A stretch of DNA of 64,000 nucleotides from Verrucomicrobiales bacterium (GTDB lineage Bacteria; Verrucomicrobiota; Verrucomicrobiia; Verrucomicrobiales; DEV007), in the NCBI GenBank assembly GCA_965216705.1, contig OZ244203.1:525845-589844 (forward strand). The letters are read 5' to 3'. Shown in pieces: positions 49,973-64,000 of the stretch. The notes beneath the pieces are model-generated. The model did not search any database and was not told where the DNA came from. It was given only the letters and a program-made list of their open reading frames with translations. The first letter of the stretch is position 1. Each line of letters starts with the position of its first letter. A program made the position numbers and the translations under genes.

Positions 49973-50995
49973 CTATTCCACCTTGATGCCAGCCGCTGCG
50001 GCTTCCTCCTTAGCGACCTTAAGCCGCTCGCGAAGGTAGGTCAGGGCTTCTTTCTCCTGCTTCAATTCGTTGATATCAGCAAACATCTCGTCCATGTCGG
50101 CCTGGATATCGTCGACAAGATCTTCGATCCAGTGGCCCACCTTCATCGCAGAATTGGTTGAGGTGGTGGTTCCACTTTCTTCAGGCGGATTCAGCATCAG
50201 GCCAATCTGCTCCTCACGCATCACGATGAGGTTGTTATTCTGATCAAGTTCGTGCTGCAGAAGTTCACGATACTGGGAGGTGATCTCCTTTTTCATGATT
50301 TCTCCAATCTCGCGGTTGCGCCTGTCGAGTCCCTCGATGCTTTTGTCCAATGCATCGATCAACTCCTGACGGGTTTGATCGGTATGAATGGTCTGCTTGC
50401 GGTTCTGCTGGTATTCCGGGTTGTTTCGAGTGGTCTCCCAGCTCCAGCCGCGCCAACCGCTGGAACGTGAATACTTGTACTTGGGCAGATCCTTGTGAGC
50501 GGCAAAGGTCTGGGCCAGTTCGAGGATTTGATCAACACGCTTCTCGATGCGGGCATCATACTTGTCCATTGCCGAGAACAACGTGTCCCGGTCGATGGAA
50601 GGATCCTGGGAATAGGCTTCAAGCTTCAGTTCACGACGCTTGGAATCGTATAGTCGGATCGTTTCGCGAAGTCCCTCGATGGCGTCCTCTTTCATTCGAA
50701 CGACACGAGTGCCGGATTCTTTCGAATCCTTCATGCTTTCGAGCTGCTTGAGAATGCGATCGATGCGCCCCTCAATACGTTCGTCTAGCTGGACAATATC
50801 CTGTGTCAATTCAGAGGCACGAATCTCACGCTCCTCGATCTGTCTCTCCACTTCCGGAATCCGGGCGGCGATTTCCTCGGGAGACAAAGAAATGGGCTGA
50901 GAAGCAGCTGCCTTGGGCCCCTGCTGTGCCTGCATCTGGAGGCCGCCGATCAGAACGGCTCCAGCCGTCGCAATGAGAATGGGTGTTTTTGTCAT
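49973..50995 (-). CDS. Hypothetical secreted coiled-coil protein
   Basis: Signal peptide; long heptad-rich, charged helices. Confidence 0.75.
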   Translation of the reverse strand: MTKTPILIATAGAVLIGGLQMQAQQGPKAAASQPISLSPEEIAARIPEVERQIEEREIRASELTQDIVQLDERIEGRIDRILKQLESMKDSKESGTRVVRMKEDAIEGLRETIRLYDSKRRELKLEAYSQDPSIDRDTLFSAMDKYDARIEKRVDQILELAQTFAAHKDLPKYKYSRSSGWRGWSWETTRNNPEYQQNRKQTIHTDQTRQELIDALDKSIEGLDRRNREIGEIMKKEITSQYRELLQHELDQNNNLIVMREEQIGLMLNPPEESGTTTSTNSAMKVGHWIEDLVDDIQADMDEMFADINELKQEKEALTYLRERLKVAKEEAAAAGIKVE

Positions 50996-51083
50996 GACTG
51001 TAGGTTTCGTAGAATTCTACGAAGTCTTAGCGACAACACGACGCAAAAATTCAAAAAGGTTAACGCCGGGAAAACGAGCTCCC

Positions 51084-52133
51084 CTAGTTCACCAGTTTCG
51101 TTACCATCCCGGCGAGATCGGCAAACGCAGCCGACATCGGACTCTCTTTCGGATCGAGAGTCGCGACCGGCTGGCCTTCGTCGGCGTGCTGGCGGGTCGG
51201 CGGATCCAGGGGGATCTGTCCAAGAAGCGGCACCCCGAGGCGCTCCGCTTCACGGGTGCCTCCACCCTCACCGAAGATGTAGTAACGGGTTCCGAGATCG
51301 CACTCAAACCAAGCCATGTTTTCGACAATTCCGGCGATGGGCACATTCACCTTCTCAAACATGCTGGCAGCCTTTCGGGCATCGATCAAAGCAACCTCCT
51401 GAGGCGTGGTTACCACCACTGCCGCGTCCACGGCCACGGTCTGAGAAATGGTCAGCTGGATATCACCTGTTCCGGGTGGGAGGTCGAGAATGAGGTAGTC
51501 CAGTTCACCCCAGACACACTGGCGGAGAAACTGCTGGGTGTAGCGGGTCGCGAGCGGACCGCGCACAATCACCGGAGAGTCATCACTGAGGAGAAAACCC
51601 ATTGAGATCGCTTTGATGCCATGGGCCTCGATGGGAATGATCTCATTCTGTTCCGTGGCCATGGGCTGCTTGTCTGCAGCACCTAACATCAAAGCCACTG
51701 AAGGTCCGTAAAGGTCACAATCGCAGAGCCCCACCTTAGCCCCGGTTTTACTCAACGCGATAGCCAGGTTGGTGGACACAGTCGATTTTCCGACACCGCC
51801 CTTTCCGCTGGCTACCGCAATGATCTTCTTCACGCCGGGAATGCTGGACTGCCCGGCCGACGGATCACCACCCGTGACGGGCTCGGGCGGATCCTGGATG
51901 TCAAAGTCGATCGACACCTTGCCGATACCCTCAACTGCATTGAGCACGGATTCGATTCCTTCGTGGATCCCACGCGGAATGTTGGGGTCGCGCGTGGCGA
52001 GGCTGATCTGGACCGTCACGTCACCTCCCTCGATAACGACGCCTTTCACCAATCCGAATGACACAATATCCCGGCTGAAGCCCGGATAGCTGACTTCTCC
52101 AAGTTTTTCGCGAATGAGATCCTCTGTAATCAT
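51084..52133 (-). CDS. mrp: Mrp/NBP35 (ApbC) Fe-S cluster carrier ATPase with N-terminal MIP18/DUF59 domain
   Basis: YPGFSRDIVSFG, ASGKGGVGKST, DCDLYGPS, DLPPGTGDIQL, VTTPQEVALIDA, VENM. Confidence 0.92.
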   Translation of the reverse strand: MITEDLIREKLGEVSYPGFSRDIVSFGLVKGVVIEGGDVTVQISLATRDPNIPRGIHEGIESVLNAVEGIGKVSIDFDIQDPPEPVTGGDPSAGQSSIPGVKKIIAVASGKGGVGKSTVSTNLAIALSKTGAKVGLCDCDLYGPSVALMLGAADKQPMATEQNEIIPIEAHGIKAISMGFLLSDDSPVIVRGPLATRYTQQFLRQCVWGELDYLILDLPPGTGDIQLTISQTVAVDAAVVVTTPQEVALIDARKAASMFEKVNVPIAGIVENMAWFECDLGTRYYIFGEGGGTREAERLGVPLLGQIPLDPPTRQHADEGQPVATLDPKESPMSAAFADLAGMVTKLVN

Positions 52134-52234
52134 GTTTCCGTTCTACAAACCGTCTTGATAGGCTAATACGGACAGAAGTCCAATTTTGAGGCATCGCAAT
52201 TTGCCCACAGGTCGATTTTCCGCCCTTTCACCCC

Positions 52235-53158
52235 TCAATCCGCCGCCTGGATCGCGGCATCGGCGGCTTCACGGCCGTGAATTGAATTCTCCGCCTCGCG
52301 GATCGCCTCACGGCTGATAGCAGGCAATTCCTCCGGATAGGTCGACAAGTCCGGAACGCACTTGAGGAATTCTTTCGTGTAGAGGTGCTTGGGGGCCCTG
52401 ACGATATCTCTGGTGACCCCTGCTTCGAGAATACCTCCCTCGTAAAAGACGGCCACCCGGTCCGCAAACCGCTCCACCGAGCGCAGGCTGCCCGACATCA
52501 TCAGCACGGCCATCTCTGACTCTTCGCCAAGCTGATGCAACAGCTCGACGAACTGATAGGCCGCCACCCGGTCAAGACTGCCGAGGGCGTGATCGCAGAT
52601 CAGCAGTTTTGATTGGGTCAACAGGGCGCGCATCAGTCCCAGCTTTCGGATCATCAAGTGCGACACCTCACTGATCCGCCGAAGCAGCACTCGCTCCGGC
52701 TCAACAATTCCAACGCGATAGAATTGGTCACTCCACTCGGACTCCGGGAGAGCCGGCTTATTGCGCCCCATCAGTTTCGCTGTTTCACGTAGACACTGGC
52801 GAACGGTATGGTTCGGATTGAACTGTTCCTTAATGTTTCGGGGCAAAAAGCTAATTTCCTCGCGCCTGAGTTGCCGCTTTCGAGAACGACGTGCTTTGAG
52901 GAGTTCCTCTCCCTCGAAAAGAATCGATCCACTCATCACCCGGGTTCCCGGCACGGCCACGCCCAGGATAAGGCTCCCCAGTAAGGAAGTCCCGCAACCG
53001 TGCTCCCCGGCCAGGACCATGACCTCTCCTCGCTTCAACTGGAGGGAAACATTTCTCAATCCAATCCCGTGGTCAACACCACGGCCAGAACGCTCCACGC
53101 TGAGCGCTTCGATTTCGATCACTGGCTGTTCTTTGACTTCCCCTAACATGTCTCTCAC
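52235..53158 (-). CDS. OppD-like ABC ATP-binding protein with degenerate catalytic motifs
   Basis: The fold is recognisable (NVSLQLKRGEV, GSILFEGEELL, VAVFYEGGILE, PKHLYTKEFL). Walker A reads GEHGCGTS and Walker B reads LICDH. Confidence 0.8.
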   Translation of the reverse strand: MRDMLGEVKEQPVIEIEALSVERSGRGVDHGIGLRNVSLQLKRGEVMVLAGEHGCGTSLLGSLILGVAVPGTRVMSGSILFEGEELLKARRSRKRQLRREEISFLPRNIKEQFNPNHTVRQCLRETAKLMGRNKPALPESEWSDQFYRVGIVEPERVLLRRISEVSHLMIRKLGLMRALLTQSKLLICDHALGSLDRVAAYQFVELLHQLGEESEMAVLMMSGSLRSVERFADRVAVFYEGGILEAGVTRDIVRAPKHLYTKEFLKCVPDLSTYPEELPAISREAIREAENSIHGREAADAAIQAAD

Positions 53159-54039
53159 AGAAATCTTGGATACCTCCCCGTCCTCAATACTCCAGCCGCC
53201 AGCGCCCCGAGCAGGGACAGAATAGCAACGACGATGGTCGCCATCATTCCCGGATAAAGAGCCATCCAGGGAGCCTCGATAATCAGGTCCCGCCCGTAGG
53301 CTACCATTACGCCCACACTGATGTGCTCCCCGGTAAACCCGAGGAAAGAAAGGGACATCTCCGCCATCACCAGCACCGGGATCATCCTGGCAAACACTCC
53401 CAGCAAGCGGCGAATCACTACGGGCACAATCCGGCTCCGGACAATCTCCTGGCGCGTCAAACCGAGCGCGTAACCGGCCAGGATATCAGGCCCCTCCTCT
53501 CCTTCCTCGAACCACCGCGCCGTCACCGGCGCCAGAGCCAGGGCTATCGCCAGCGTCATTGCAATCATGGCCAGCACGAGACTGCCTCCAGCGCCTCCCG
53601 CAAGGATAACGATCACCATGAACGACGGCAGCAGAAAGCCCGCCCGGGATGTTATTTTCAAGAGGCGAAATCGATTTTCGCCAACGTCAAAAGCAAACAG
53701 CATCACAACGAGCAAGGTCAGGGCAACGCCGGCCCCACTTGAGACCACGGCAACCGCTACCGAATTCGCCATCGCAATACGGGAGAGTTCGTAAAGGTCA
53801 GCTCCGGTTCCCGTTGTCCCGAAACGATGTTCCTCACTTGGCTTCTCCCACAGGGGATGATCCGGCACCGTGAAGACCTCGCCGGGTCGCACGTCAGCAT
53901 GGCGGCTCGCGGTGAACAACCAACCTGACAGAACCAGGTAGGGAATCACGAGCAAAAGGACAAGACGAAGACGCCAGATCTTTGCCAGGATTTCCAGGCC
54001 AACTCCGAGAGTCTTGCTGCTTCTACGATTTCCCATCAC
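53155..54039 (-). CDS. OppC-like ABC permease (divergent)
   Basis: PSEEHRFGTTGTGADL (cf. PS..H.FGTD..GRD), AEMSLSFLG, APWMALYPG. Confidence 0.8.
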   Translation of the reverse strand: MMGNRRSSKTLGVGLEILAKIWRLRLVLLLVIPYLVLSGWLFTASRHADVRPGEVFTVPDHPLWEKPSEEHRFGTTGTGADLYELSRIAMANSVAVAVVSSGAGVALTLLVVMLFAFDVGENRFRLLKITSRAGFLLPSFMVIVILAGGAGGSLVLAMIAMTLAIALALAPVTARWFEEGEEGPDILAGYALGLTRQEIVRSRIVPVVIRRLLGVFARMIPVLVMAEMSLSFLGFTGEHISVGVMVAYGRDLIIEAPWMALYPGMMATIVVAILSLLGALAAGVLRTGRYPRFL

Positions 54040-54893
54040 TCAACACTCGTCAGCTTCACCAGAAGCTCACGACCAAAAGTCACCAGTCCGATCACCACCG
54101 CAACCACCACACTGCACATCAGGATGCCCGTGTAGTAGCCGCCTTTCACACAATCCACGAACAAGCTGCCCAGCCCGTCATATCGAAACGCCCACTCCAC
54201 CACGACGAGTCCCCCGAGAATGAAGGGCAAAGCCTGATCCAGCAGCCCAAGCACCGCCGGCCGTGCCTGGCGGTAGACATTTCCGTAAAAGATCGTGTCG
54301 TCCCGATGACCTGCCGTATAGAGCCCCTTCACGAAGGGTCGTCCCGCCTCTTTCTCAATCACCGATGACACCGCCCTCAACTGCCACGCAGCAGCAGGAG
54401 CAAGGACCGGAAGCGCGACGATAGAAGCATACCACCAACTCATCAGGTCAGGCCCTGACTGGACTACCACTTCGTCAGCAAACCCCGGGCGCTGCCAGGC
54501 AAAGTAGGAGTAGATCGCAACGGCCACAACGAACCAGAATCCCGGCACACAGGCAAAGAGGCTGAACGGAAGTGCGAGCAAGGCACCAAGTTTCACTCGT
54601 CGCAGTCTCGCCGCGAGAATCCCCCAACCATATCCGACCAGCAAGACACCGCCGTAGGCAATCAGCCAGACCTTGGCAGAACTCACCACCCTCTCAGACA
54701 CCAGGCCCCGCCAACCGGTCGCACCATAAGCAATCACGGAGGCCTCACCCTCATAGGATTCCGGCTGCCAAATATGTTGATCCGAACCACCGAAAACACA
54801 ATAGGACAGTTCTAACAAGAGCAGCACAATGACTCCCGCACCGACCACGCGCGCAAGGAAAGCCAGGATTCGTTGCAGGAGAAACTTCACCAT
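54036..54893 (-). CDS. OppB-like ABC permease (divergent)
   Basis: About 6 TM; VPGFW, GGLVVVEWAFRYDGLG (cf. G.v.vE.vF.wPGlG). Confidence 0.75.
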   Translation of the reverse strand: MVKFLLQRILAFLARVVGAGVIVLLLLELSYCVFGGSDQHIWQPESYEGEASVIAYGATGWRGLVSERVVSSAKVWLIAYGGVLLVGYGWGILAARLRRVKLGALLALPFSLFACVPGFWFVVAVAIYSYFAWQRPGFADEVVVQSGPDLMSWWYASIVALPVLAPAAAWQLRAVSSVIEKEAGRPFVKGLYTAGHRDDTIFYGNVYRQARPAVLGLLDQALPFILGGLVVVEWAFRYDGLGSLFVDCVKGGYYTGILMCSVVVAVVIGLVTFGRELLVKLTSVE

Positions 54894-54895
54894 GA

Positions 54896-57001
54896 TCAGC
54901 CGTCGCTACCGCTGTCCTCCTGCTTTGCTTTTTCAATCCTGACCCACCATGGCCGGACCCGCTCGAGCCCTGCCTTTCCGACTGTCATGGGAGCTCTTGT
55001 GTATTCACCAACTGCAACCGGCTTTGCCACCTCAATCGCATCCTCCCGGTGCCAGATAATTCGCCCGGTATCGCAAACGAACAGGCAGGGCTGAAGGGCG
55101 GCAATTTCTGCTTCCAACTCAGTAGCGGCTTGTCTCACCTCTTCTTCGTCTTCAGCGTAACGAAGATCGAGCAGCAACTCGTCGACCACATGGTTGCGCA
55201 AGCCCCACATGTTGCCTCCTCCAAGCTCAACTTGCTGGGAATGCCAGGATTCGTATCGGTCCCGCTCCAGCGGAATCTCCCAGCTCAACATCATGGCGCT
55301 GAACTCTCTTGTTGCGAGATGCTCGGCCAGCATTTCCAACCACGGCATCTCTCGAACCTCGACAGTGACACCCACCGCCGACCAGTGCTCAGCGAGAGCC
55401 TTTGCCAGTTTCACCTGCGTTTCATTGGTCTCATTCACCAGCAATTCGAAGAGGAAAGGCTTTCCGTCCGGTCCCACTCGAATCCCCTTGGATTCGTCGA
55501 ACGGATACCCGTTCTTCTCGAGCAAATTTTCAGCCGATCTCGGATCATAGAGCGGCAATGCCATTGGCTTTTCCGAATATTCCATTCCCGGAAAAAAGAG
55601 ACTCTTCGTCAGGACCTGGAACTCCGTCGCACTGTTAGTCAGGATCGCCTCCAGGTCTACCGACCGGGCCAGGGCGAGCCGGAGTTCTTTCCTGTCGAAC
55701 GGAGCCCGGTCCATGTTCCAGGCCACAAAGTGCTGGAACCGGGGGCGACACTCCAGCTGCTTGACCATACCGGGATTTCTCTTGGTCCACTCACGGAACC
55801 GCAAGTCCGGATCAATCGTGTCAATTTGTCCTGACCGAAGTGCCAGCAACTTTGATTCAAACGACTCCACCTGCCGATAGACAATGGCCTTCTGCTTTGG
55901 CGCCCCACGGAAGAATTGCTCATTCGCAGCTAGGACAATGCCGCCGTCATCCCGACGGCGGACGATCTGGTAGGGGCCGTTCCCCACCGGATTCTTAAAG
56001 AACGCCATCCATTCTTCGAAAGTCTCTGCGCCACCCAGGATATGCTCCGGAAGGACAGGTAGCTTCTCGAGACTTTCCATCAGGATGGTCGGAGAATCCC
56101 GCAGGATCATTCGCACCTGGTAGTCGTCGACCTTTTCAATCTCTTCGGCGAACCAGAATGCTCCCGCCATTGGTAACGGCGATCCCGGCCCTGTGAGCAG
56201 TCGATAGGTAAACAGCACATCATCTACCGTGAGCCGTTGCCCGTCGTGCCAGGTGACGCCTCGACGGAAGTCCACCGTCGCTTCGCGAAAACTGGTGTGA
56301 CTGCGAATTCCCACTTCCTCTACCCGGGGATCCAACGTTCGATTCGATTCATAGTAGAGCTCCAGCTCCCGGAGCAGGAGGTCGATGTCACCCTTGGCAA
56401 AAAGGTTCACCACCTGGTCGCTCTCATACTCCATCATCTTGATCTGCGACTTTTCAACCGAGCCCTGGAGAAACGTTTCAAAAGACTCCCTCACCGAGTT
56501 CGAAACCGAAAGCTTGATCAGCAGAAAGTTGCCCAAGTTCTCCGGGTCAAACCCATCCACGAGTTGATCCGGAATCTCAGGATCATATCCTTCGAGCATT
56601 ACCGTGAGCACGCTGCCGTCGCGCTCAATTCGCAGCAACTTAAGACCGTCAGCAACATACTCACCGGAAAGCAACTTTGCCTCCGAGTCACCCGCCGCCT
56701 CTTCACTTTCACAGCGAATCGTCACATGGGTCCGGGCCCGGGTGCCCGTGACGATATTCGGGATGAGGTTCAACTCATCATCACGAAGCAACAGGGGCTC
56801 AAAAACAAGATCCGTCACCTCGCGCGTCGTTCCACCTAGCGGCAGCAGTGGATTAAGCAGACCAACGGGCTCACGAATCACACAGTTCATCTCCTGCGCC
56901 TCCTCGGGCAACTCCAATCGACTGACCTGTCGAAAGAGCAGTACAGCGCAAAAAGTCACCGCAAGAGGTGCGGTAAAGAGAAGCGCACGGAGCCAGAACA
57001 T
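54896..57001 (-). CDS. OppA/family-5 solute-binding protein with N-terminal anchor and large insertion
   Basis: LNPLL, VFEPLL, GVTWHDGQRLTVDDVLFTY, PVGNGPY, NEQFFRGAPK, FDRKELRLALA, YDPRSAENLLEKNG. Confidence 0.85.
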   Translation of the reverse strand: MFWLRALLFTAPLAVTFCAVLLFRQVSRLELPEEAQEMNCVIREPVGLLNPLLPLGGTTREVTDLVFEPLLLRDDELNLIPNIVTGTRARTHVTIRCESEEAAGDSEAKLLSGEYVADGLKLLRIERDGSVLTVMLEGYDPEIPDQLVDGFDPENLGNFLLIKLSVSNSVRESFETFLQGSVEKSQIKMMEYESDQVVNLFAKGDIDLLLRELELYYESNRTLDPRVEEVGIRSHTSFREATVDFRRGVTWHDGQRLTVDDVLFTYRLLTGPGSPLPMAGAFWFAEEIEKVDDYQVRMILRDSPTILMESLEKLPVLPEHILGGAETFEEWMAFFKNPVGNGPYQIVRRRDDGGIVLAANEQFFRGAPKQKAIVYRQVESFESKLLALRSGQIDTIDPDLRFREWTKRNPGMVKQLECRPRFQHFVAWNMDRAPFDRKELRLALARSVDLEAILTNSATEFQVLTKSLFFPGMEYSEKPMALPLYDPRSAENLLEKNGYPFDESKGIRVGPDGKPFLFELLVNETNETQVKLAKALAEHWSAVGVTVEVREMPWLEMLAEHLATREFSAMMLSWEIPLERDRYESWHSQQVELGGGNMWGLRNHVVDELLLDLRYAEDEEEVRQAATELEAEIAALQPCLFVCDTGRIIWHREDAIEVAKPVAVGEYTRAPMTVGKAGLERVRPWWVRIEKAKQEDSGSDG

Positions 57002-57161
57002 GGCTTCAGTTTATATCGATGAAATGAGGAATTCCAAACCCGGAATCCCTCTCGCTTCAATATATCGCTCCCCGGGGAGCCAGTCCGCTTTCGGCGACAG
57101 AGAGAGCACCCCGCCATGCGGAGGGGAAGAGACTGATTTACAATTCACCTCGAGCAGCGGC

Positions 57162-58499
57162 TCAGCGAAGATCCACGCACTTCAGCACAGTTTGCCCACG
57201 CATAATGAGGCGACCGTCGCTGAGGGCCATGGGAGTCCAGAACTTGAAGTCGGGCATCTTGATGACGGCACGACCTTCCTGTTTGGCGATCTGCTCGTCA
57301 ACTTCAGCTTTCTTGCCGAAAACATCGAACATGCCCACTTCCTGGTAACCATCCGGAGAAGGCACCACGGAACGGAGATAACCAACCTCACCGTCCTGGA
57401 TGAGAAGATGTCCGTCGACGAGGATCATGTTACCGCGCCCCATGAATGGTTCCTCGCCGGTGTGCCAGAGAATCTTGCCATCAAAATCCATGCAAGCCAG
57501 TCCACCTTTCTGCCGGGCTTCCCCTTTATGATTGCTGTTTTCGTTGGCGAGGAAATAGATGTGTTCCCCGATCACGAAGGGCGGGTGAATCTGAGTTCCC
57601 TCGATCTTGTCGAAAACTTTCTCCACGGTCCAGTCACCACCATCGTTGCGAACCTTGACCATGCAACTGCCGCAGTCGTAGCCGCCGGTCAGCCAGACAA
57701 GCTCATCAGTGACCTTGGTCGCAAACGGAATCGGGATTTTGTTGAAGTAGATATCCGTCTTCCAGAGCACCTCGCCGGTTTCGGGAAGCACACTGATGGT
57801 TGTGCCGGTTCCGTCATCGCCGTCGCGCAGCGTTGCCACAAAAACGACCTGCTCCACTCCGTGGAGATTCAAAACGGTAGGCGTAGAGTGAGAGTCACCA
57901 AAACCTTCGGTCTTCCAGAGCTCCTTGCCAGTCTTCTTGTCGAGACCGATAAGACCAACTTCTTCGCTCATGGCCGGAACAATGAGGACATTCCCTACCG
58001 AAACCACACTTTGGGCCCAGCCCCACTTCGGCGGAGGTGAACCGTATTCATCCTGGATCGAAACCATCCAGTCCTGCTGCTGTGTTTCGCGATTGATGCG
58101 GAACACCTGGCCAAAACCGCTCACGTAATAGACGGCATCGCCCTCAACCAGAGGAGTGCCGCGGCTGCCGTGGAAAGAGAGCTTACCGGCGTAGTCGAAA
58201 GTGAAGCGCCACTTCTCCGAACCGTCTTCGAGAGAAAGGCAGAGCACGTGGTCCCGCTCACCGAGGTCGCGATCAACCAGGAAAACCTCATCGCCCGCAA
58301 TAGCAGCACCGCCGAAACCTTCGTTGAGTTCTTTCTCCCAAAGGATCTCGGGTGCTTTCTTGTCCCAATCGGAAAGATTGAGCCCAGTTTCAGCGGAGAC
58401 ACCGGTTCGAGAGGGCCCTTGGAAATTGGGCCAGTCGTCGGCTTGGACGTTAGCTCCGAGAGCCACGGTGAGGGCGAAAAAAGCGATTGGAAATTTCAT
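57162..58499 (-). CDS. PQQ-binding-like beta-propeller protein (PVC BamB-like family)
   Basis: Signal then DWPNFQGPSRTG; repeated G...W units (GSEKW, GKELW, GEVLW, GKILW). Confidence 0.85.
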   Translation of the reverse strand: MKFPIAFFALTVALGANVQADDWPNFQGPSRTGVSAETGLNLSDWDKKAPEILWEKELNEGFGGAAIAGDEVFLVDRDLGERDHVLCLSLEDGSEKWRFTFDYAGKLSFHGSRGTPLVEGDAVYYVSGFGQVFRINRETQQQDWMVSIQDEYGSPPPKWGWAQSVVSVGNVLIVPAMSEEVGLIGLDKKTGKELWKTEGFGDSHSTPTVLNLHGVEQVVFVATLRDGDDGTGTTISVLPETGEVLWKTDIYFNKIPIPFATKVTDELVWLTGGYDCGSCMVKVRNDGGDWTVEKVFDKIEGTQIHPPFVIGEHIYFLANENSNHKGEARQKGGLACMDFDGKILWHTGEEPFMGRGNMILVDGHLLIQDGEVGYLRSVVPSPDGYQEVGMFDVFGKKAEVDEQIAKQEGRAVIKMPDFKFWTPMALSDGRLIMRGQTVLKCVDLR

Positions 58500-58600
58500 G
58501 CGGATGAAATCTGCCAAAGGGCTCCCCCCTTTTCAATCACCGAACCTGCAACAATCGCGCCAGTTAAGAAATGTCCAATTTCGCCGCGCCCGAGCGTTAC

Positions 58601-60010
58601 TCAGTAACTCCGGCGCATGTGACTGGGGAGAATATTGAGTTCCTCCCGATACTTCGCCACGGTGCGTCGTGCGATCTTGATTCCCTTTTTGCCCAGCTCT
58701 TCTACGATCTTCTGATCACTGAAGGGCTTCTTCGGGTCCTCATCCGCCACGAGGTCAGCCAGCGATTGCTTCACGCTGGTATTACTCATCGACTCTCCAT
58801 CCTCCGTTTCGTATCCGGTGGTGAAGAAATACTTCATTTCGAATACCCCGTGGGGCGTCGACATGTATTTGCCTGAGACGGCGCGACTCACTGTGGTTTC
58901 GTGAACGCCAACCTCCTCGGCCACCTGGGCCATGTTCATCGGCTTGAGTTTGGAGGGCCCGTAGTCGAGAAACTCCTGCTGTCGCTTCACGATCTCCGTC
59001 GCGATCGACTGGATGGTCTGCTGGCGCTGATGGATGCTCTTAATGAGAAACTTTCCGGCGCGGATCTTGTCACGAATATAGGAACGCGCTTCGCGACCGT
59101 CACCGCTCGCCATGAGATCTTTGTAAGCGTTGCTGATTCGCAGGCGCGGAACTTGCTCGTTGTTCATCGTCACGACCCATTCGCCACCGATTCGTTCCAC
59201 GGTCACATCCGGACTGACATAGGTGTTAGTATCTCCGCCAAACTTGCTTCCCGGACGCGGATCCAAAGTCGCGATAAATTCCGCCGCTTTGGTGATCTGC
59301 TCAGGCGCCACGCTGAGGCGCTTCGCAATCTGCGGATATCGCTTCCGGGCCAGATCATCGAGGTGATGATCCACCACGCGATATTCAAGGCTGTGATGTT
59401 TCCCAAGACGCTCCAACTGGATCAGCAGGCATTCCCGAAGATCCACCGCCCCGACTCCAACCGGATCAAACCCCTGGATGATGTCACGGGCATCAGTTAG
59501 ATCATCGTAGGGAATTCCCATGTCGAAGCTCATGTCTTCGAGGTCGACCTGGAGAAATCCGTTCTCGTCAATATTACCGATCAGCGTCGCTGCCAGCTCC
59601 CGTTCCTCGCCGGAGACATCTGAAGTACTGAGCTGATTGAGGAGATGCTCCTGAAGCGTGATCGGCTCGACGATGGAATCCATGACGAACTGATGCTTCT
59701 CATCCGCATCGTCACGGCGGGGCGCCGACATGCGGGACTGGGCCATGTATTCGCGCCACTCCTCGTCAAGCTGGGACAGCTCAGCGAATTCTTTTTCAAA
59801 ATCATCGTCCTCCGACGGAGAACTGGCCTCTTCGAGTGAAACCTCAGTCGATTCCTCCTCCAGAGTGGGGTTTTCCACCATCTCCTGCTGAACCAGATGG
59901 CGCAGTTCCAGGGTAGGAGTCTGCAGCAATTGCAAACTTTGCTGCATCTGTGGCGCAATAGTCTGCTGCTGCTGAAGGGACTGAAACTGGTCAAATCGCT
60001 GTTCGGCCAT
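58601..60010 (-). CDS. rpoN: RNA polymerase sigma-54 factor
   Basis: Gln-rich region I (QMQQSLQLLQ), DPVGVGA.DLRECL, VHETTVSRAV, RpoN box ARRTVAKYRE. Confidence 0.97.
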   Translation of the reverse strand: MAEQRFDQFQSLQQQQTIAPQMQQSLQLLQTPTLELRHLVQQEMVENPTLEEESTEVSLEEASSPSEDDDFEKEFAELSQLDEEWREYMAQSRMSAPRRDDADEKHQFVMDSIVEPITLQEHLLNQLSTSDVSGEERELAATLIGNIDENGFLQVDLEDMSFDMGIPYDDLTDARDIIQGFDPVGVGAVDLRECLLIQLERLGKHHSLEYRVVDHHLDDLARKRYPQIAKRLSVAPEQITKAAEFIATLDPRPGSKFGGDTNTYVSPDVTVERIGGEWVVTMNNEQVPRLRISNAYKDLMASGDGREARSYIRDKIRAGKFLIKSIHQRQQTIQSIATEIVKRQQEFLDYGPSKLKPMNMAQVAEEVGVHETTVSRAVSGKYMSTPHGVFEMKYFFTTGYETEDGESMSNTSVKQSLADLVADEDPKKPFSDQKIVEELGKKGIKIARRTVAKYREELNILPSHMRRSY

Positions 60011-60050
60011 ACTAGGTGACCCGGCTTACGGAGGGATACTGGCCGACCTT

Positions 60051-60067
60051 AGCATGTTTCGAGCCAC
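60051..60067 (-). promoter_or_regulatory. Sigma54-type -24/-12 site upstream of rpoN
   Basis: Minus strand GTGGCTCGAAACATGCT = GG-N10-GC, two mismatches to TGGCACG-N4-TTGC, 40 bp upstream of the ATG. Confidence 0.55.
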
Positions 60068-60186
60068 TCGTTTCAACTTTTTCAAAAAAAACTTACCGAT
60101 TTGCGTTCCCTGCTTTCACTCTCACGCACTAGCGATTCTCGCAGCCATATGTATCCCTCATAAAAATTTAAAATTAATACGCTTGC

Positions 60187-60230: not shown

Positions 60231-61334
60231 ATGGTGAAATATCACGCCATGTTCCGCTTCATTTCTATCTTCGTGTTCGCAGTTTTTCTGTGCCTCAACC
60301 TGCAGGCTCAGGACCAGCGTTTGCGCGGTAGAAACCTCATCAATCAGCCTTCTGATTATTGGGAAAATCTGTCTCCAATCGAGGACCCTTCAGCCTCCCC
60401 TACTCCGGCGACAATCCCGGCGAAGATAGATCGCCCGCGCATCTCCGGAACCGGCATTCCCGCCTGGCAAACCCGCTATACCCTCGGGCCCGGCGATACA
60501 TTGAATTTTTCGGTCTACGATCGCCCTGACCTGAGCCGCGAAAACGTCCAGATCGCTCCGGACGGGACCGTCAGCTTTCTTCAGGCAGTGGCGGTGCAGG
60601 CGAACGGACTCACTCCGGATGAACTTCGCGACCGTATTGAGCAGGAACTCTCTATCTTCCAGAACAACGTAAAAGTGATCATCTCCCCCTCCGACGTTGC
60701 GAGTAAGGAGTTCTCCATCATCGGCCGCGTTCGCAGCCCCGGAAGCTACACCCTTGATCGGCCGACCTCCATTCTTGAAGCGATCTCCCTGGCCCAGGGG
60801 ATCGAAACCAACACCGTCCGCGGCTCCGCGTTCGAACTCGCTGACTTTGAGCGTTCTTTCGTCGCCCGCAACGGTCGCAAGCTCGATGTCGACCTCGCCA
60901 GCCTCTATTACCGCGGCGACCTCAGCCAGAACGCTTATCTGGAGCCTGACGATTACATCTACGTTGCCTCGAACCTGAAGAACGAGATCTACGTCCTCGG
61001 AGCGGTGGCCCGCCCGGGTCGTTTCAAGATGCCGGTGCGCCTCACGGTAGCTCAGGCCATTGCCGAAGCCGGCGGCTTTGACCGCTACGCCTACCGGATC
61101 AAAGTGCTCGTGATCCGTGGCAGCATCCATGAGCCCGAAACTCACATCGTCAATATTAAGGACATCCTCGCCGGACGCACCAAGGACATCACGCTTGAGA
61201 ATCGCGATATTGTTTTCGTTAACGAACGTCCTTTCGAACTGGTCGAGCGCGCCCTCGACAGCGCCATCTTTGCCTTCCTCCAGACCGTCACCACCGAGAG
61301 CATCGTGAACAACTACGTGCCATTGACTGACTGA
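60231..61334 (+). CDS. Polysaccharide biosynthesis/export (Wza-like, SLBB) protein 1
   Basis: YTLGPGDTL, IAPDGTVSF, IIGRVRSPG, YVLGAVARPG, AIAEAGG; Sec-type signal; start may be 60249. Confidence 0.88.
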   Translation: MVKYHAMFRFISIFVFAVFLCLNLQAQDQRLRGRNLINQPSDYWENLSPIEDPSASPTPATIPAKIDRPRISGTGIPAWQTRYTLGPGDTLNFSVYDRPDLSRENVQIAPDGTVSFLQAVAVQANGLTPDELRDRIEQELSIFQNNVKVIISPSDVASKEFSIIGRVRSPGSYTLDRPTSILEAISLAQGIETNTVRGSAFELADFERSFVARNGRKLDVDLASLYYRGDLSQNAYLEPDDYIYVASNLKNEIYVLGAVARPGRFKMPVRLTVAQAIAEAGGFDRYAYRIKVLVIRGSIHEPETHIVNIKDILAGRTKDITLENRDIVFVNERPFELVERALDSAIFAFLQTVTTESIVNNYVPLTD

Positions 61335-61355
61335 TCCGCCGTTTTCCGATTTCTC

Positions 61356-62507
61356 ATGAAATTTCGTCCTGTCATCCTCTTTCAACTTGGCCTGCTACTG
61401 CTGGCTGCAGGAATGACCAGCTGCGTCCAGACCTGGCCGGCTGATCGTGAGTTTCAAACCCATGCCGCGCTCTATGCCGAGGATCAGGAAGTCATCGATG
61501 ATACCCTGACCGTCGATGAAGCAATCAACCGCATCCCGGCCGAGCCTGATTTCCAGCAGCTCCACTTCGACAAGACGATCGACCCGGCCTGTCTCCGAAA
61601 ACCTTCCGGATCCTATCAGGTGGGCCCTGGCGACACCCTTGATATTGAAGTGGCCGAACTCGCTGACACACGCAGAACCACCCGGGTCCTCCCCGACGGA
61701 ATGCTCTACTATGACGTTGCCGACGGCGTCAACGTAAAGGGCATGACGATTACCGAAATTTCCAATGCTCTCTCCGAGCAGCTCGTCGATGACTACGTCA
61801 ATCCGATTGTCTCGGTAAATGTGGCAAACGCCGACAGCCAGCGCTTCTGGCTACTGGGCCAGGTCCGCACCCCGGGCGCCTTCCCCATCCAGAAACCGAC
61901 CACCGTGATCGATGCAATTTCCCAGGGTGGTGGCTTGCTTTCCTACGACCAGAACAACGAAGTCGGCAACCCTGAGGCAGCCGACCTGAGACGCTCCATC
62001 CTTATCCGCAACGGCGACCTCGTCCCGGTTGATTTCGATGCCCTCATTCGCAACGGCGACATGTCCCAGAATGTCTATATCCAGCCGGGCGACTACCTCT
62101 TTATCCCCTCCCTCACCTCACGCTCAATCTATGTGCTTGGCGAGGTCATCACCCCGGGACCGGTTTTCTATGAAGAAGGCGCCACCCTGCTGACCGCGGT
62201 GGCTTCTGCCGGCGGCGTCGACAAGGATGCCGTCAAATCCAAGGCACTCATTCTGCGGGGCGGCACCCACGACCCACAGGTCGCTGTCGTAAATATCGAT
62301 GCCGTCATGAGAGGCAAGGAACCCGACTTGTTGCTTGAAGGCGGCGACATCGTCTGGGTGCCGCGCACCGCGTGGACCAAGCTCAAGGAATACACCGAAG
62401 CCGTCCTCATCACTGCCGGCCAGGCCGTGGCGATCCAGGAGGGCATCACCGTGGCCGGAGGAGACGGCCGCACCGGCGTTGCCATTACTGCCGGCGGTGG
62501 AAACTAA
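61356..62507 (+). CDS. Polysaccharide biosynthesis/export (Wza-like, SLBB) lipoprotein 2
   Basis: Lipobox MTSC; YQVGPGDTL, VLPDGML, LLGQVRTPG, VLGEVITPG, GGDIVWVP. Confidence 0.88.
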   Translation: MKFRPVILFQLGLLLLAAGMTSCVQTWPADREFQTHAALYAEDQEVIDDTLTVDEAINRIPAEPDFQQLHFDKTIDPACLRKPSGSYQVGPGDTLDIEVAELADTRRTTRVLPDGMLYYDVADGVNVKGMTITEISNALSEQLVDDYVNPIVSVNVANADSQRFWLLGQVRTPGAFPIQKPTTVIDAISQGGGLLSYDQNNEVGNPEAADLRRSILIRNGDLVPVDFDALIRNGDMSQNVYIQPGDYLFIPSLTSRSIYVLGEVITPGPVFYEEGATLLTAVASAGGVDKDAVKSKALILRGGTHDPQVAVVNIDAVMRGKEPDLLLEGGDIVWVPRTAWTKLKEYTEAVLITAGQAVAIQEGITVAGGDGRTGVAITAGGGN

Positions 62508-62587: not shown

Positions 62588-63601
62588 CTACATATTGTCG
62601 CCGTCAAGCATGCGGCCAATACCGCCGAGCAGGCTTCCCTCTCCTTTATCAGATCCGCCGGCCGAGGGCGCATATCGCAGGACCCGGTCTGCCAGTCGTG
62701 AAAACGGCAGACTCTGCAGCCACACTTTTCCGTGTCCTGACAAAGTCGCCAGATACATCCCCTCTCCTCCGAAGAACATCGACTTCAGGTTACCGGCGCG
62801 CTCAATGTCGTAAGATATTCCGGGGCCAAAAGCGGCAAGACAGCCGGTGTCCACACGCAGGGTCTCGCCATTGAGTTCCTTTTCAATAATCGTGCCGCCG
62901 GCATGGAAAAACACTTTCCCGTCGCCGAGCAGTTTCTGGAGAACGAACCCCTCGCCCCCAAAGAATCCCCTGCCCAACTTCATGCTGAAATCGATGGTGA
63001 CCTCGGTTCCTTTCGCGGCGCAAAGGAAGGCATCCTTCTGACAAATCAGCTGTCCCCCCAGGGCTGCCAGATCGACCGGAATAATCTTACCCGGATAAGG
63101 AGAGGCAAAGGCCGCCCGGCGCTTCCCGGTAGAACCGCCGTGGGTAAAGTGTGTCATAAAGATCGACTCACCGGTGAGAGCCCGCTTACCGACAGCGAGC
63201 AGTTTGCCCATCATGCCTTCATTGGGCGTGCTGCCGTCCCCCATCTTAGCTTCAAAAACTATTTCCGGTTCGACGTAATTCATCGCACCTGCCTCAGCGA
63301 TCACGGTTTCGCCAGGATCGAGCTCGATCTCAACAATCTGCATGTCGTCTCCGAAAATTTCGTAGTCGATTTCGTGAGAGCGTTGCCCCATCGCCGGAGG
63401 CGCAGACGGTGTGGGGGGAGGAGACGCAGCTCCTCCAAAGAGCTGAGGCAGGGTTTCTCCTGCAGTCGCCCAGTCAGCCATCCCGTTGGTCCAGACTTTC
63501 GTCTGCGGAGTGATGGTTCCATTTGCGACCAGGGTGGGGAGATCAGACTCGGGTGCCTGGTTCTGATTGTCAGCGGAATTTGCGTAATGCCAGTTGTTCA
63601 T
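62588..63601 (-). CDS. GYF_2 (DUF4339) domain fused to AIM24/TIGR00266 family protein
   Basis: N-terminal WHY...L...[16 protein letters not shown]; then [52 protein letters not shown]. Confidence 0.9.
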
Positions 63602-63752
63602 GGGGATATCAATTGAGGCTATAGGGAATAGCATGGGGGTCAACGCATGAAGAATTACAAATTCGCATCCCGTCTGTAATCGGGCCTTCCCCTCTTTCAC
63701 GCCCATTTCTGCATTGCAAGGCGGGCCGCTCTGGCAAACACTACCGTGCCGT

Positions 63753-64000
63753 ATGATTCGCCAATCGAAGGACAGGACCCAACAGGGTTACTTCAAGCAC
63801 CTAACCCTGTTAGGTCCTGTTCTCGGCCTTACGCTTCTTTTCACAGCTGGTGGATGCGGCAGGGAGTCCAAGGTCGACATTGCGACCCGCGAGAAAATTC
63901 TCATTATGGGCAATGGGGCCGAACCTAAGGCTCTCGATCCGCACATCGTGTCCTCGGTGGGTGACTCCAACATTCTCCGCGCCTTGTTTGAAGGCCTGGT
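63753..64000 (+). CDS. Peptide ABC transporter substrate-binding lipoprotein (3' truncated by window edge)
   Basis: Hand translation: MIRQ...LLFTAGGC (lipobox)...[30 protein letters not shown], a typical OppA N-terminus. Confidence 0.85.

What the first reader, a model, noticed from the sequence alone, without database searches (positions are those of the whole stretch)
52235..57001. Intact Opp-like ABC operon whose only ATPase is catalytically dead
All four genes are full length and tightly coupled (overlaps or a 2-bp gap), with no frameshifts. Yet the single NBD has lost every catalytic element: Walker A GEHGCGTS (Lys to Thr), no LSGGQ signature (EVSHLM at that position), Walker B DE to DH, and H-switch THD to SGS. 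Its C-terminal PxHxYT motif is kept. The EAA coupling loops of both permeases are also eroded (PDILAGYALG; PFVKGLYTAG). Opp/Dpp systems normally carry two active NBDs (OppD and OppF). Coordinated loss of the energy-coupling motifs in otherwise intact ORFs suggests repurposing, for example as a membrane sensor or scaffold, or as a pseudo-ATPase half that recruits a partner encoded elsewhere (inference).
Basis: partly seen in the sequence, partly recalled or inferred. Interest (0 to 1): 0.7.

Follow-up and report, generated by a model that had tools for sequence, protein, structure and literature searches.

The report
Conserved Opp-like ABC operon, dead ATPase
A four-gene peptide/nickel-type ABC importer operon in a marine Verrucomicrobiales genome has one ATPase subunit that lacks every catalytic motif, yet the whole operon is intact, conserved across a clade of relatives and under purifying selection, so it is a repurposed "pseudo-transporter", not a decaying gene.

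Summary
Four tightly coupled minus-strand genes at 52235-57001 encode a binding protein (SBP), two permeases and one nucleotide-binding domain (NBD). Alignment to solved DppD/OppD shows the NBD lacks the Walker A Lys, Q-loop Gln, LSGGQ, Walker B Glu and H-switch His, plus the A-loop aromatic.

This is not recent decay. The same cassette, always with one NBD, occurs in 27 related loci, and its NBD in about 65 sequence clusters, all Verrucomicrobiales. Every member lacks the A-loop, Q-loop, signature and H-switch. Walker A Lys and Walker B Glu were lost repeatedly (at least 9 and 14 changes). dN/dS is 0.05-0.12 for all four genes. The fold, D-loop, P-loop glycines, coupling loops, a new C-terminal helix and a promoter-like footprint are conserved.

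One polypeptide carries both the Walker-side and the signature-side defects, so no partner NBD could restore a canonical ATP site. My best reading is an ATP-hydrolysis-independent complex derived from a PepT-type importer, most likely a ligand-sensing or regulatory device; a passive SBP-dependent gate is second. The function itself is inferred. I class it as a new variant of a known kind, moderately high interest.

The parts
57032..57037 (-). -35-like hexamer TTGGAA of a promoter-like footprint
   Evidence: TTGGCA/TTGGAA stands at the same position in the window and in 20 of 21 related loci.
57010..57015 (-). -10-like hexamer TATAAA. The spacer is 16 nt and the hexamer ends 8 nt before the SBP ATG, which would give a leaderless or near-leaderless mRNA (inferred).
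   Evidence: TAnnnT ends 6-8 nt before the ATG in 20 of 21 loci. The consensus scan missed it.
54896..57001 (-). Substrate-binding protein, 701 aa, family 5 (cluster C), unusually long
   Evidence: PF00496 at 8e-54. AF2 model pLDDT 88.3. Closest solved structures are AppA, NikZ and CtaP. About 65 clusters of ~700 aa, all Verrucomicrobiales; canonical SBPs of ~550 aa reach at most 31% identity.
56924..57001 (-). N-terminal hydrophobic helix of the SBP (residues 1-26), a probable signal anchor, conserved in sequence
   Evidence: AF2 helix 2-28. M1, W3, L4, R5, P12, L22 and F23 are at least 90% conserved.
56294..56752 (-). Family-specific alpha/beta insertion of ~150 aa in lobe I of the SBP (residues ~84-236)
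   Evidence: The Pfam match starts only at residue 240. The insertion is well folded in the AF2 model and strongly conserved. It has no Pfam or PDB sequence match.
54036..54893 (-). Permease B (OppB/DppB/NikB-like), 285 aa
   Evidence: PF00528 at 4e-14. A family profile hits E. coli DppB at 5e-10.
54309..54341 (-). Diverged EAA/coupling loop of permease B, RPFVKGLYTAG
   Evidence: Aligned to DppB EDYIRTARAKG. Conserved within the family.
53155..54039 (-). Permease C (OppC/NikC-like), 294 aa
   Evidence: No Pfam hit. NCBIfam Opp2C at 4e-17, far below cut-off. Mtb OppC at 4e-9.
53461..53490 (-). Diverged EAA/coupling loop of permease C, PDILAGYALG
   Evidence: Aligned to Mtb OppC EFIRAARYMG. The family consensus WFeegE.g.D..agY.lGL.R.eIv is conserved.
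52235..53158 (-). Single pseudo-NBD, 307 aa, with an intact ABC ATPase fold
   Evidence: PF00005 at 5e-18. AF2 pLDDT 87.7. Best fold match is E. coli DppD/OppD, TM about 0.75.
52985..53008 (-). Vestigial Walker A, GEHGCGTS (Lys57 to Thr). The glycine scaffold is invariant in the family.
52835..52846 (-). Former Q-loop, LPRN (Gln to Arg)
   Evidence: Gln is present in 0 of 65 family members.
52685..52723 (-). Family-specific invariant block FYRVGIVEPERVL, just upstream of the former signature
   Evidence: G150, E153, P154, E155 and L158 are invariant.
52652..52669 (-). Former ABC signature, EVSHLM in place of LSGGQ
   Evidence: The first Gly is present in 1 of 65 members.
52589..52606 (-). Vestigial Walker B, LLICDH (catalytic Glu to His)
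52571..52582 (-). D-loop GSLD, retained
   Evidence: The Asp is present in 65 of 65 members.
52484..52501 (-). Former H-switch, MMSGSL (His to Gly). The family has a new conserved GSLRG motif here.
52376..52393 (-). PKHLYT, a remnant of the oligo_HPY C-terminal domain
   Evidence: P256 and Y260 are invariant. PF08352 scores 19.8 bits, below the 27.1 cut-off.
52277..52327 (-). Family-specific C-terminal helix LPAISREAIREAENSIH. It takes the place of the Cys-rich tail seen in a canonical relative.
   Evidence: Conserved in all members. AF2 helix 283-306.

Best explanation
The locus encodes a complex derived from a peptide/nickel-type (PepT family) ABC importer. Its only NBD is a pseudo-ATPase kept for structural or adaptor reasons.

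Shown:
- The cassette SBP-B-C-NBD is a conserved unit of a Verrucomicrobiales clade and carries its own promoter-like footprint.
- All four genes are under purifying selection.
- The NBD keeps the ABC fold, the D-loop, the P-loop glycines, and the stretch just after the Q-loop (P115, V119, L123), which I take from general ABC knowledge to face the permeases.
- The family ancestor lost the A-loop, Q-loop, signature and H-switch. Walker A Lys and Walker B Glu have since drifted away repeatedly.

Inferred: the complex assembles like an importer, with a membrane-tethered SBP on a B/C heterodimer and two copies of the pseudo-NBD. It does not bind and hydrolyse ATP in the canonical sandwich dimer, so it cannot be a primary active transporter.

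My most likely mechanism is as follows. Ligand binding to the SBP is relayed through the permeases to the pseudo-NBD pair. The conserved C-terminal helix (ISREAxREAExxIH) and the VGIVEPE block of the pseudo-NBD then engage or release a cytoplasmic partner. This would make the complex a dedicated sensor or regulator, like MalK/MalT or Pst/PhoU signalling but without transport.

I put about 0.8 on 'selectively maintained and not a canonical ATPase' and about 0.35-0.4 on the sensor/adaptor role specifically.
For: - Motif losses were verified against solved DppD/OppD and across 65 non-redundant family members: A-loop aromatic 0/65, Q-loop Gln 0/65, signature GG about 0/65, H-switch His 0/65, Walker A Lys 46/65, Walker B Glu 35/65, D-loop Asp 65/65.
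- An NJ tree with Fitch counts gives at least 9 changes at the Lys and at least 14 at the Glu.
- dN/dS (NG86), window against L001: NBD 0.114, C 0.083, B 0.097, SBP 0.120. Neighbouring genes give 0.03-0.11. Against L003/L004 the NBD gives 0.05-0.09. L014-L018 gives 0.056.
- The cassette is intact in every related locus whose contig spans it (27 loci, several on short or cut contigs), and always has one NBD.
- No canonical NBD lies within 10 kb except an unrelated complete YejABEF-like operon in L010, whose NBD keeps canonical Walker A and signature motifs.
- The fold is intact.
- The coupling loops and the SBP anchor helix are conserved within the family.
- A promoter-like footprint is conserved.
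- Marine metatranscriptome contigs at 90-95% identity cover all four genes at depths similar to rpoN and mrp.
Against: - No output partner, signalling domain or regulator is encoded in the cassette. Upstream neighbours (RpoN, PQQ propeller) are not conserved in distant members.
- Walker A Lys is still more conserved (71%) than the average column (54%), so some nucleotide or phosphate binding may persist in many members.
- The permeases keep several motifs that I recognise from memory as typical of OppC-type permeases (EM.LSFLG, APWMA.YPG). That fits a transporter at least as well as a sensor.
- The metatranscriptome evidence consists of unstranded contigs at low depth and could include DNA carry-over.
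- No biochemical data exist.
Confidence: 0.4

Rival explanations
1. SBP-dependent transporter that does not use ATP. The permease pair, held together by the inert NBD dimer, works as a facilitator or an ion-coupled secondary carrier for the ligand delivered by the tethered SBP.
For: - The permeases keep motifs I recognise from memory as typical of OppC-type permeases (HWFGTTGxGxD, EMxLSFLG, APWMAxYPG) and are under purifying selection.
- The SBP keeps the two-lobe fold.
- Literature precedents show that ABC membrane domains can carry hydrolysis-independent or ion-coupled flux: the TAP D-loop mutant acts as a facilitator (PMC4242082) and MsbA is proton-coupled (PMC4979069).
Against: - No natural type I importer is known to work this way.
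- Opening of importer TMDs normally needs ATP-driven NBD closure (established knowledge).
- No conserved intramembrane acidic or basic pair was identified, and I did not look systematically.
Confidence: 0.2
2. Energised in trans. The pseudo-NBD occupies one docking site and an active OppD/F-like NBD encoded elsewhere occupies the other, or a multitask NBD replaces it.
For: - Shared NBDs exist for sugar importers (MsiK/MsmK; PMC7658222).
- These genomes do carry other PepT systems: L010 has a Yej-like operon and L022 has a second SBP_bac_5 gene.
- Whole genomes could not be searched.
Against: - Composite-site logic: the pseudo-NBD lacks both its Walker-side elements (A-loop, Q-loop, H-switch, and here also Lys and Glu) and its signature. 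Both ATP sites of any heterodimer would therefore be defective. Known asymmetric ABC dimers always keep one fully canonical site (PMC7756269).
- No conserved second NBD gene lies within 10 kb in the 21 GTDB-genome loci.
- The only nearby canonical NBD is a fused two-NBD protein with its own permeases.
- Both coupling loops have diverged away from the canonical form.
Confidence: 0.13
3. Non-canonical but still active ATPase or nucleotide-gated switch. The retained P-loop scaffold and D-loop, with new conserved residues (R226 in GSLRG, E153/E155), form an altered catalytic or nucleotide-binding site.
For: - The P-loop glycines GExGxGxS and the D-loop Asp are invariant.
- Lys is kept in 71% of members.
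- New invariant motifs lie near the former signature and H-switch.
Against: - Twelve of 65 members carry T, N, I, V, P or A at the Walker A Lys position, and 7 more carry Arg.
- The catalytic Glu is replaced in 46% of members.
- The A-loop aromatic is absent in all.
- Selection strength is unchanged in lineages that lost the Lys.
Confidence: 0.07
4. Recent pseudogenisation: a dying transporter operon whose ORFs happen still to be open.
For: The operon proteins evolve roughly 3 times faster than the neighbouring housekeeping genes (39-65% against 75-86% identity).
Against: - dN/dS is 0.05-0.12.
- The ORFs are intact in every related locus whose contig spans them (27 loci).
- The NBD belongs to about 65 sequence clusters.
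- Family-specific motifs and a promoter-like footprint are conserved.
Confidence: 0.02

Closest known systems
PepT-family ABC importers (TC 3.A.1.5): OppABCDF, DppABCDF, NikABCDE/Opp2, YejABEF
   Same: - Gene order SBP-B-C-NBD.
- A family 5 SBP fold (AppA/NikZ-like).
- OppB- and OppC-type permeases.
- An NBD fold closest to E. coli DppD/OppD, with a remnant of the HPYT C-terminal motif.
   Different: - One NBD gene instead of two (or one fused pair).
- All catalytic motifs lost.
- The Cys-rich tail seen in a canonical relative (P0085) is replaced by an acidic helix.
- The SBP carries a conserved N-terminal membrane helix and a 150-aa insertion.
- The coupling loops have diverged.
- All curated NCBIfam scores fall far below cut-off.
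Heterodimeric ABC exporters and channels with one degenerate ATP site (TM287/288, TmrAB, TAP1/2, CFTR, SUR)
   Same: Catalytic residues are lost while the protein remains functional, and the degenerate site takes on a structural or regulatory role (PMC7756269).
   Different: In those proteins the defects are split between the two NBDs, so one composite site stays fully canonical and drives the cycle. Here one polypeptide carries both kinds of defect, so no canonical site can form. Those are also exporters, not SBP-dependent importers.
Importers energised by a shared NBD (MsiK/MsmK systems)
   Same: The operon lacks a working ATPase of its own (PMC7658222).
   Different: Those operons simply lack an NBD gene. 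This one keeps a dedicated but dead NBD under purifying selection.
Importer NBDs with regulatory side functions (MalK-MalT/EIIAGlc, PstB-PhoU-PhoR, SapD/TrkE), cited from my own knowledge
   Same: The cytoplasmic NBD, especially its C-terminal part, talks to other proteins. This is the model for the proposed sensor/adaptor role.
   Different: All of those are active ATPases that also transport. A signalling role is not demonstrated here.
Non-transport ABC ATPases such as PhnK/PhnL of C-P lyase
   Same: Good structural matches to the model. They are NBDs used as parts of non-transport machines.
   Different: I expect them to keep the catalytic motifs (my own knowledge; one search lists ATP- and ADP-bound and E171Q structures), and they are not encoded with permeases and an SBP.

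Membership tests
PepT-family ABC importer (Opp/Dpp/Nik/Yej) | Family 5 (cluster C) substrate-binding protein | tested here: met
   PF00496 at 8e-54. The model matches AppA, NikZ and DppA.
PepT-family ABC importer (Opp/Dpp/Nik/Yej) | Two distinct BPD_transp_1 permeases of OppB and OppC type | tested here: met
   B scores 53 bits on PF00528 and its profile hits DppB. C has no Pfam hit but matches Mtb OppC at 4e-9 and NCBIfam Opp2C/NikC. Both are far below the curated equivalog cut-offs.
PepT-family ABC importer (Opp/Dpp/Nik/Yej) | Two NBDs (D and F, or one fused pair) | tested here: not met
   There is one single-domain NBD gene in the window and in every related locus that spans the end of the cassette.
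PepT-family ABC importer (Opp/Dpp/Nik/Yej) | NBD with a C-terminal oligo_HPY domain | tested here: inconclusive
   PF08352 scores 19.8 bits against a 27.1 cut-off. P256 and Y260 are invariant. The Cys-rich tail seen in the canonical relative P0085 is absent.
Catalytically competent ABC ATPase | Walker A GxxGxGK[ST] with the Lys | tested here: not met
   GEHGCGTS. The Lys is present in 46 of 65 family members.
Catalytically competent ABC ATPase | LSGGQ signature | tested here: not met
   EVSHLM. Absent in the whole family.
Catalytically competent ABC ATPase | Walker B hhhhDE with the catalytic Glu | tested here: not met
   LLICDH. The Glu is present in 35 of 65 members.
Catalytically competent ABC ATPase | Q-loop Gln, H-switch His and A-loop aromatic | tested here: not met
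   Arg, Gly and Arg at those positions. Each canonical residue is present in 0 of 65 members.
Catalytically competent ABC ATPase | ATP binding and hydrolysis measured | not testable with these tools
   Needs purified protein.
ABC dimers with one degenerate site | One composite ATP site remains fully canonical | tested here: not met
   The same polypeptide lacks both the signature and the Walker-side elements. No second NBD is encoded nearby. This conclusion is logical, not experimental.
Type I ABC importer TMD | EAA-x3-G coupling loop | tested here: inconclusive
   Position, Gly and spacing are kept, but the Glu and Ala residues are replaced. The loops are conserved within the family.

The most novel reading that the evidence does not exclude
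This Verrucomicrobiales cassette is a natural lineage of SBP-dependent ABC importers that has given up ATP altogether. The permease/SBP machine has been converted either into a ligand-driven transmembrane signal relay, whose pseudo-NBD tail is the output, or into an ATP-independent SBP-dependent gate. Either would be a previously undescribed way of working for the ABC importer architecture.
Probability: 0.5. Interest if true: 0.8.

Novelty: new variant of a known kind. Interest (0 to 1): 0.62.

Why it matters
ABC importers are defined by ATP-driven NBD dimerisation. Known degenerate ABC systems always keep one working ATP site. A whole clade that keeps the SBP, both permeases and an NBD under purifying selection after losing all catalytic elements shows that the architecture can serve another purpose.

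It also offers a natural 'hydrolysis-null' system for studying how SBP docking, permease movement and NBD contacts are coupled without nucleotide.

There is a practical lesson for annotation. Source labels call these proteins ABC or glutathione/peptide transport ATPases, so metabolic reconstructions of marine Verrucomicrobiales probably over-count peptide or nickel uptake capacity.

Tried and rejected
- Recent decay is rejected by dN/dS and by conservation.
- A second NBD nearby. There is none in the window or in the loci, apart from an independent canonical Yej-like operon in L010. The ~1-kb extra DNA between the NBD and Mrp genes in some loci is an opposite-strand RsmB-type methyltransferase gene, not an NBD remnant.
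- A functional link to the flanking genes. RpoN and the PQQ propeller lie upstream in most loci but not in distant members (L027, L024). Mrp/ApbC is always downstream but is often separated by a convergent gene and evolves about 3 times more slowly. I treat both as inherited synteny.
- A sigma-54 promoter upstream of the SBP gene. No conserved GG-N10-GC element was found; a sigma-70-like footprint was found instead.
- Identity of the SBP insertion domain and of the NBD tail. Neither has a Pfam or PDB sequence match.
- The single-sequence PDB search for permease B found nothing; a family profile was needed.
- Literature searches for ATPase-dead importers or pseudo-transporters found no description of such a system.
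- RNA runs carrying the organism's species label hold none of the sequence. Only metatranscriptomes of relatives do.
- There are no tRNA genes or Rfam matches in the window.
- Ligand-pocket residues of the SBP could not be mapped, because no model coordinates or reference sequences were available offline.

Full report
**1. What is there**

Four minus-strand ORFs fill 52235-57001:
- a 701-aa family 5 substrate-binding protein (SBP, 54896-57001);
- a 285-aa OppB-like permease (54036-54893);
- a 294-aa OppC-like permease (53155-54039);
- a 307-aa ABC nucleotide-binding domain (NBD, 52235-53158).

There is a 2-bp gap after the SBP gene and two 4-bp overlaps after that. Pfam and NCBIfam place all four in the peptide/nickel (PepT) family, but every curated equivalog score is far below its cut-off. 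For example, the NBD scores 122 bits against NikD, whose cut-off is 319, and permease C has no Pfam hit at all. No other canonical ABC ATPase is encoded in the 64-kb window.

**2. The motif claims**

I checked the motifs against HMMER alignments to the solved M. tuberculosis DppD and OppD.

| Element | Window | Canonical |
|---|---|---|
| Walker A | GEHGCGTS | GESGSGKS |
| Q-loop | LPRN | VPQD |
| Signature | EVSHLM | LSGGM / LSGGQ |
| Walker B | LLICDH | LLIADE |
| H-switch | MMSGSL | LITHDL |
| D-loop | GSLD | retained |
| HPYT remnant | PKHLYT | retained |

The A-loop aromatic is also gone: Phe in canonical relatives aligns with Arg23.

The fold itself is intact. The AF2 model has a mean pLDDT of 87.7 and its best PDB matches are E. 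coli DppD and OppD at TM about 0.75.

They have diverged but remain recognisable: RPFVKGLYTAG against DppB EDYIRTARAKG, and PDILAGYALG against OppC EFIRAARYMG. The word 'eroded' for the EAA loops is too strong.

**3. It is a family, not an accident**

- A protein search found about 50 clusters of ~300-aa relatives at 40-95% identity, all labelled Verrucomicrobiales or Verrucomicrobiota. Similarity then drops sharply to canonical fused YejF-like ATPases at 34% identity or less.
- An exhaustive profile search added only a handful of more distant single-domain members.
- The SBP shows the same pattern: about 65 clusters of ~700 aa, then canonical ~550-aa SBPs at 31% identity or less.
- A scan of GTDB species genomes returned 21 loci. 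Six more came from contig look-ups.
- Wherever the contig is long enough, the order SBP-B-C-NBD is intact, with a single NBD.
- In most loci the cassette sits between rpoN plus a PQQ/BamB-like propeller gene (upstream) and mrp/apbC (downstream). In distant members the upstream genes differ: SodB in L027 and a TIM-barrel protein in L024. An opposite-strand RsmB-like gene often separates the NBD gene from mrp. I therefore treat the flanking genes as inherited synteny.

**4. Pattern of motif loss**

Counts are across 65 non-redundant family NBDs.

| Element | Members keeping the canonical residue |
|---|---|
| A-loop aromatic | 0 |
| Q-loop Gln | 0 |
| First signature Gly | 1 |
| H-switch His | 0 (Gly in 56) |
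| Walker A Lys | 46 (Arg 7; T/I/N/V/P/A 12) |
| Walker B Glu | 35 (D/G/H/N in the rest) |
| D-loop Asp | 65 |

The P-loop glycines are invariant. On a rough NJ tree rooted with canonical relatives, the family is monophyletic behind a long stem. Fitch parsimony needs at least 9 changes at the Lys and at least 14 at the Glu.

The simplest reading is that the ancestor lost the ability to form a canonical ATP sandwich, and the leftover Walker residues have been drifting ever since. The window lineage (with L001, L003, L002 and L005) is among the most degenerate.

**5. Selection and expression**

- Nei-Gojobori dN/dS between the window and its close relative L001 is 0.114 for the NBD, 0.083 for C, 0.097 for B and 0.120 for the SBP. 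Neighbouring genes give 0.03-0.11. Against L003/L004 the NBD gives 0.05-0.09.
- Other close pairs give 0.056 (L014-L018), 0.061 (L010-L014) and 0.18 (L008-L009) for the NBD.
- Deeper pairs are saturated at synonymous sites and I do not use them.
- The operon proteins evolve roughly 3 times faster than RpoN or Mrp, but they are clearly constrained, including in the lineage that lacks the Walker Lys.
- New family-specific motifs are invariant or nearly so: FYxVGIVEPERIL, GSLRG, and the tail LPxISREAxREAExxIH, which the model predicts as a helix.
- The coupling loops, and several permease motifs that I recognise from memory as typical of the family, are conserved. So is the N-terminal membrane helix of the SBP.
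- A position-conserved promoter-like footprint is present in the window and in 20 of 21 related loci: TTGGCA/TTGGAA, then 16-18 nt, then TAnnnT ending 6-8 nt before the SBP ATG. It predicts a leaderless or near-leaderless transcript.
- Three marine metatranscriptomes hold contigs at 90-95% identity that cover all four genes at depths like those of rpoN and mrp. This fits expression, but the contigs are unstranded and shallow.

**6. Mechanism**

Established knowledge, reviewed in PMC7756269: an ABC ATP site is built from Walker A, Walker B, the H-loop, the Q-loop and the A-loop of one NBD together with the signature of the other. Known asymmetric dimers keep one fully canonical site.

Here a single polypeptide lacks both halves. 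A homodimer has no site, and a heterodimer with any canonical partner would have two defective sites. Together with the absence of a conserved second NBD gene, this makes the 'recruits a partner' idea unlikely, although whole genomes could not be searched.

The L010 genome carries a complete canonical YejABEF-like operon a few kb away, whose NBD has canonical Walker A and signature motifs. At least that genome keeps those motifs in a canonical importer next door.

I conclude that the complex works without canonical ATP hydrolysis (about 0.8). What it does instead is inference. I favour a ligand-sensing or adaptor device in which the conserved tail helix is the cytoplasmic output (about 0.35-0.4). 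An ATP-independent SBP-dependent gate or secondary carrier comes next (about 0.2). Trans-energisation (about 0.13), a non-canonical ATPase (about 0.07) and decay (about 0.02) are less likely.

**7. Ligand**

The SBP body is closest to B. subtilis AppA (peptide), NikZ (Ni-histidine) and CtaP. The permeases and the NBD score best against nickel/Opp2-type models. This is too weak to name a ligand. The 150-aa insertion in SBP lobe I is conserved and well folded in the model, but has no detectable relatives.

**8. Novelty**

Four full-text searches found no description of an SBP-dependent importer with a wholly dead NBD. Source annotations call these proteins generic ABC or glutathione/peptide ATPases. 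I class it as a new variant of a known kind.

Noticed in passing
window 57010-57037 (minus strand); same position in L001-L022 and L027: A position-conserved sigma-70-like footprint (TTGGCA/TTGGAA, 16-18 nt, TAnnnT) ends 6-8 nt before the SBP start codon, with no Shine-Dalgarno sequence. It predicts a leaderless mRNA. TTGGCA may be the local -35 consensus.
   Followed up: partly
window 56294-56752 (SBP residues ~84-236): A conserved ~150-aa alpha/beta domain is inserted in lobe I of the binding protein. It has no Pfam or PDB sequence relatives, and its role is unknown.
   Followed up: partly
window 56924-57001 (SBP residues 1-26): The N-terminal hydrophobic helix of the SBP is conserved in sequence (W3, L4, R5, P12, L22, F23). 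This suggests a retained membrane anchor that packs against the permeases, not a cleaved signal peptide.
   Followed up: no
L009 10861-11979, L015 10852-11889, L024 5668-6252, L027 10849-11832: In many relatives an RsmB/NOP2-type RNA methyltransferase gene lies on the opposite strand between the NBD and mrp genes. The window's clade has lost it from this position.
   Followed up: partly
L010 15130-20891: A complete canonical YejABEF-like operon (600-aa SBP, two permeases, fused two-NBD ATPase with canonical Walker A and signature motifs) lies about 3 kb beyond mrp in one relative. It serves as a within-genome contrast to the dead system.
   Followed up: yes
window 57162-60010 and 51084-52133: The order rpoN (sigma-54), a secreted PQQ/BamB-like propeller gene, the ABC cassette, and mrp/apbC (Fe-S carrier ATPase) is conserved, all on one strand, across most relatives. 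The neighbours are 70-86% identical where the cassette is 39-65% identical.
   Followed up: partly
L027 5324-6055 and 13270-14106: In a distant member the cassette sits among iron-related genes (Fe-SOD upstream; mrp, ferritin and a Bfd-like ferredoxin downstream). This may be coincidence or a hint of a metal-related role.
   Followed up: no
window 60231-62504 and 62591-63787: Two tandem Wza-like polysaccharide export genes (Poly_export + SLBB) lie divergent from rpoN, followed by an AIM24-family protein with an N-terminal GYF_2 domain. The arrangement is also conserved in relatives.
   Followed up: no
window 50900-60100: Marine metatranscriptome contigs (runs X25-X27) at 90-95% identity tile the whole rpoN-to-mrp stretch at 2-7x. 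A close relative therefore seems transcriptionally active in seawater.
   Followed up: partly
P0216 / L023: The most basal family member (Lys kept, Walker B DD) has a His one residue away from the H-switch position (LTLSHLS). It may be a transitional form, but the contig is only 1.9 kb.
   Followed up: no
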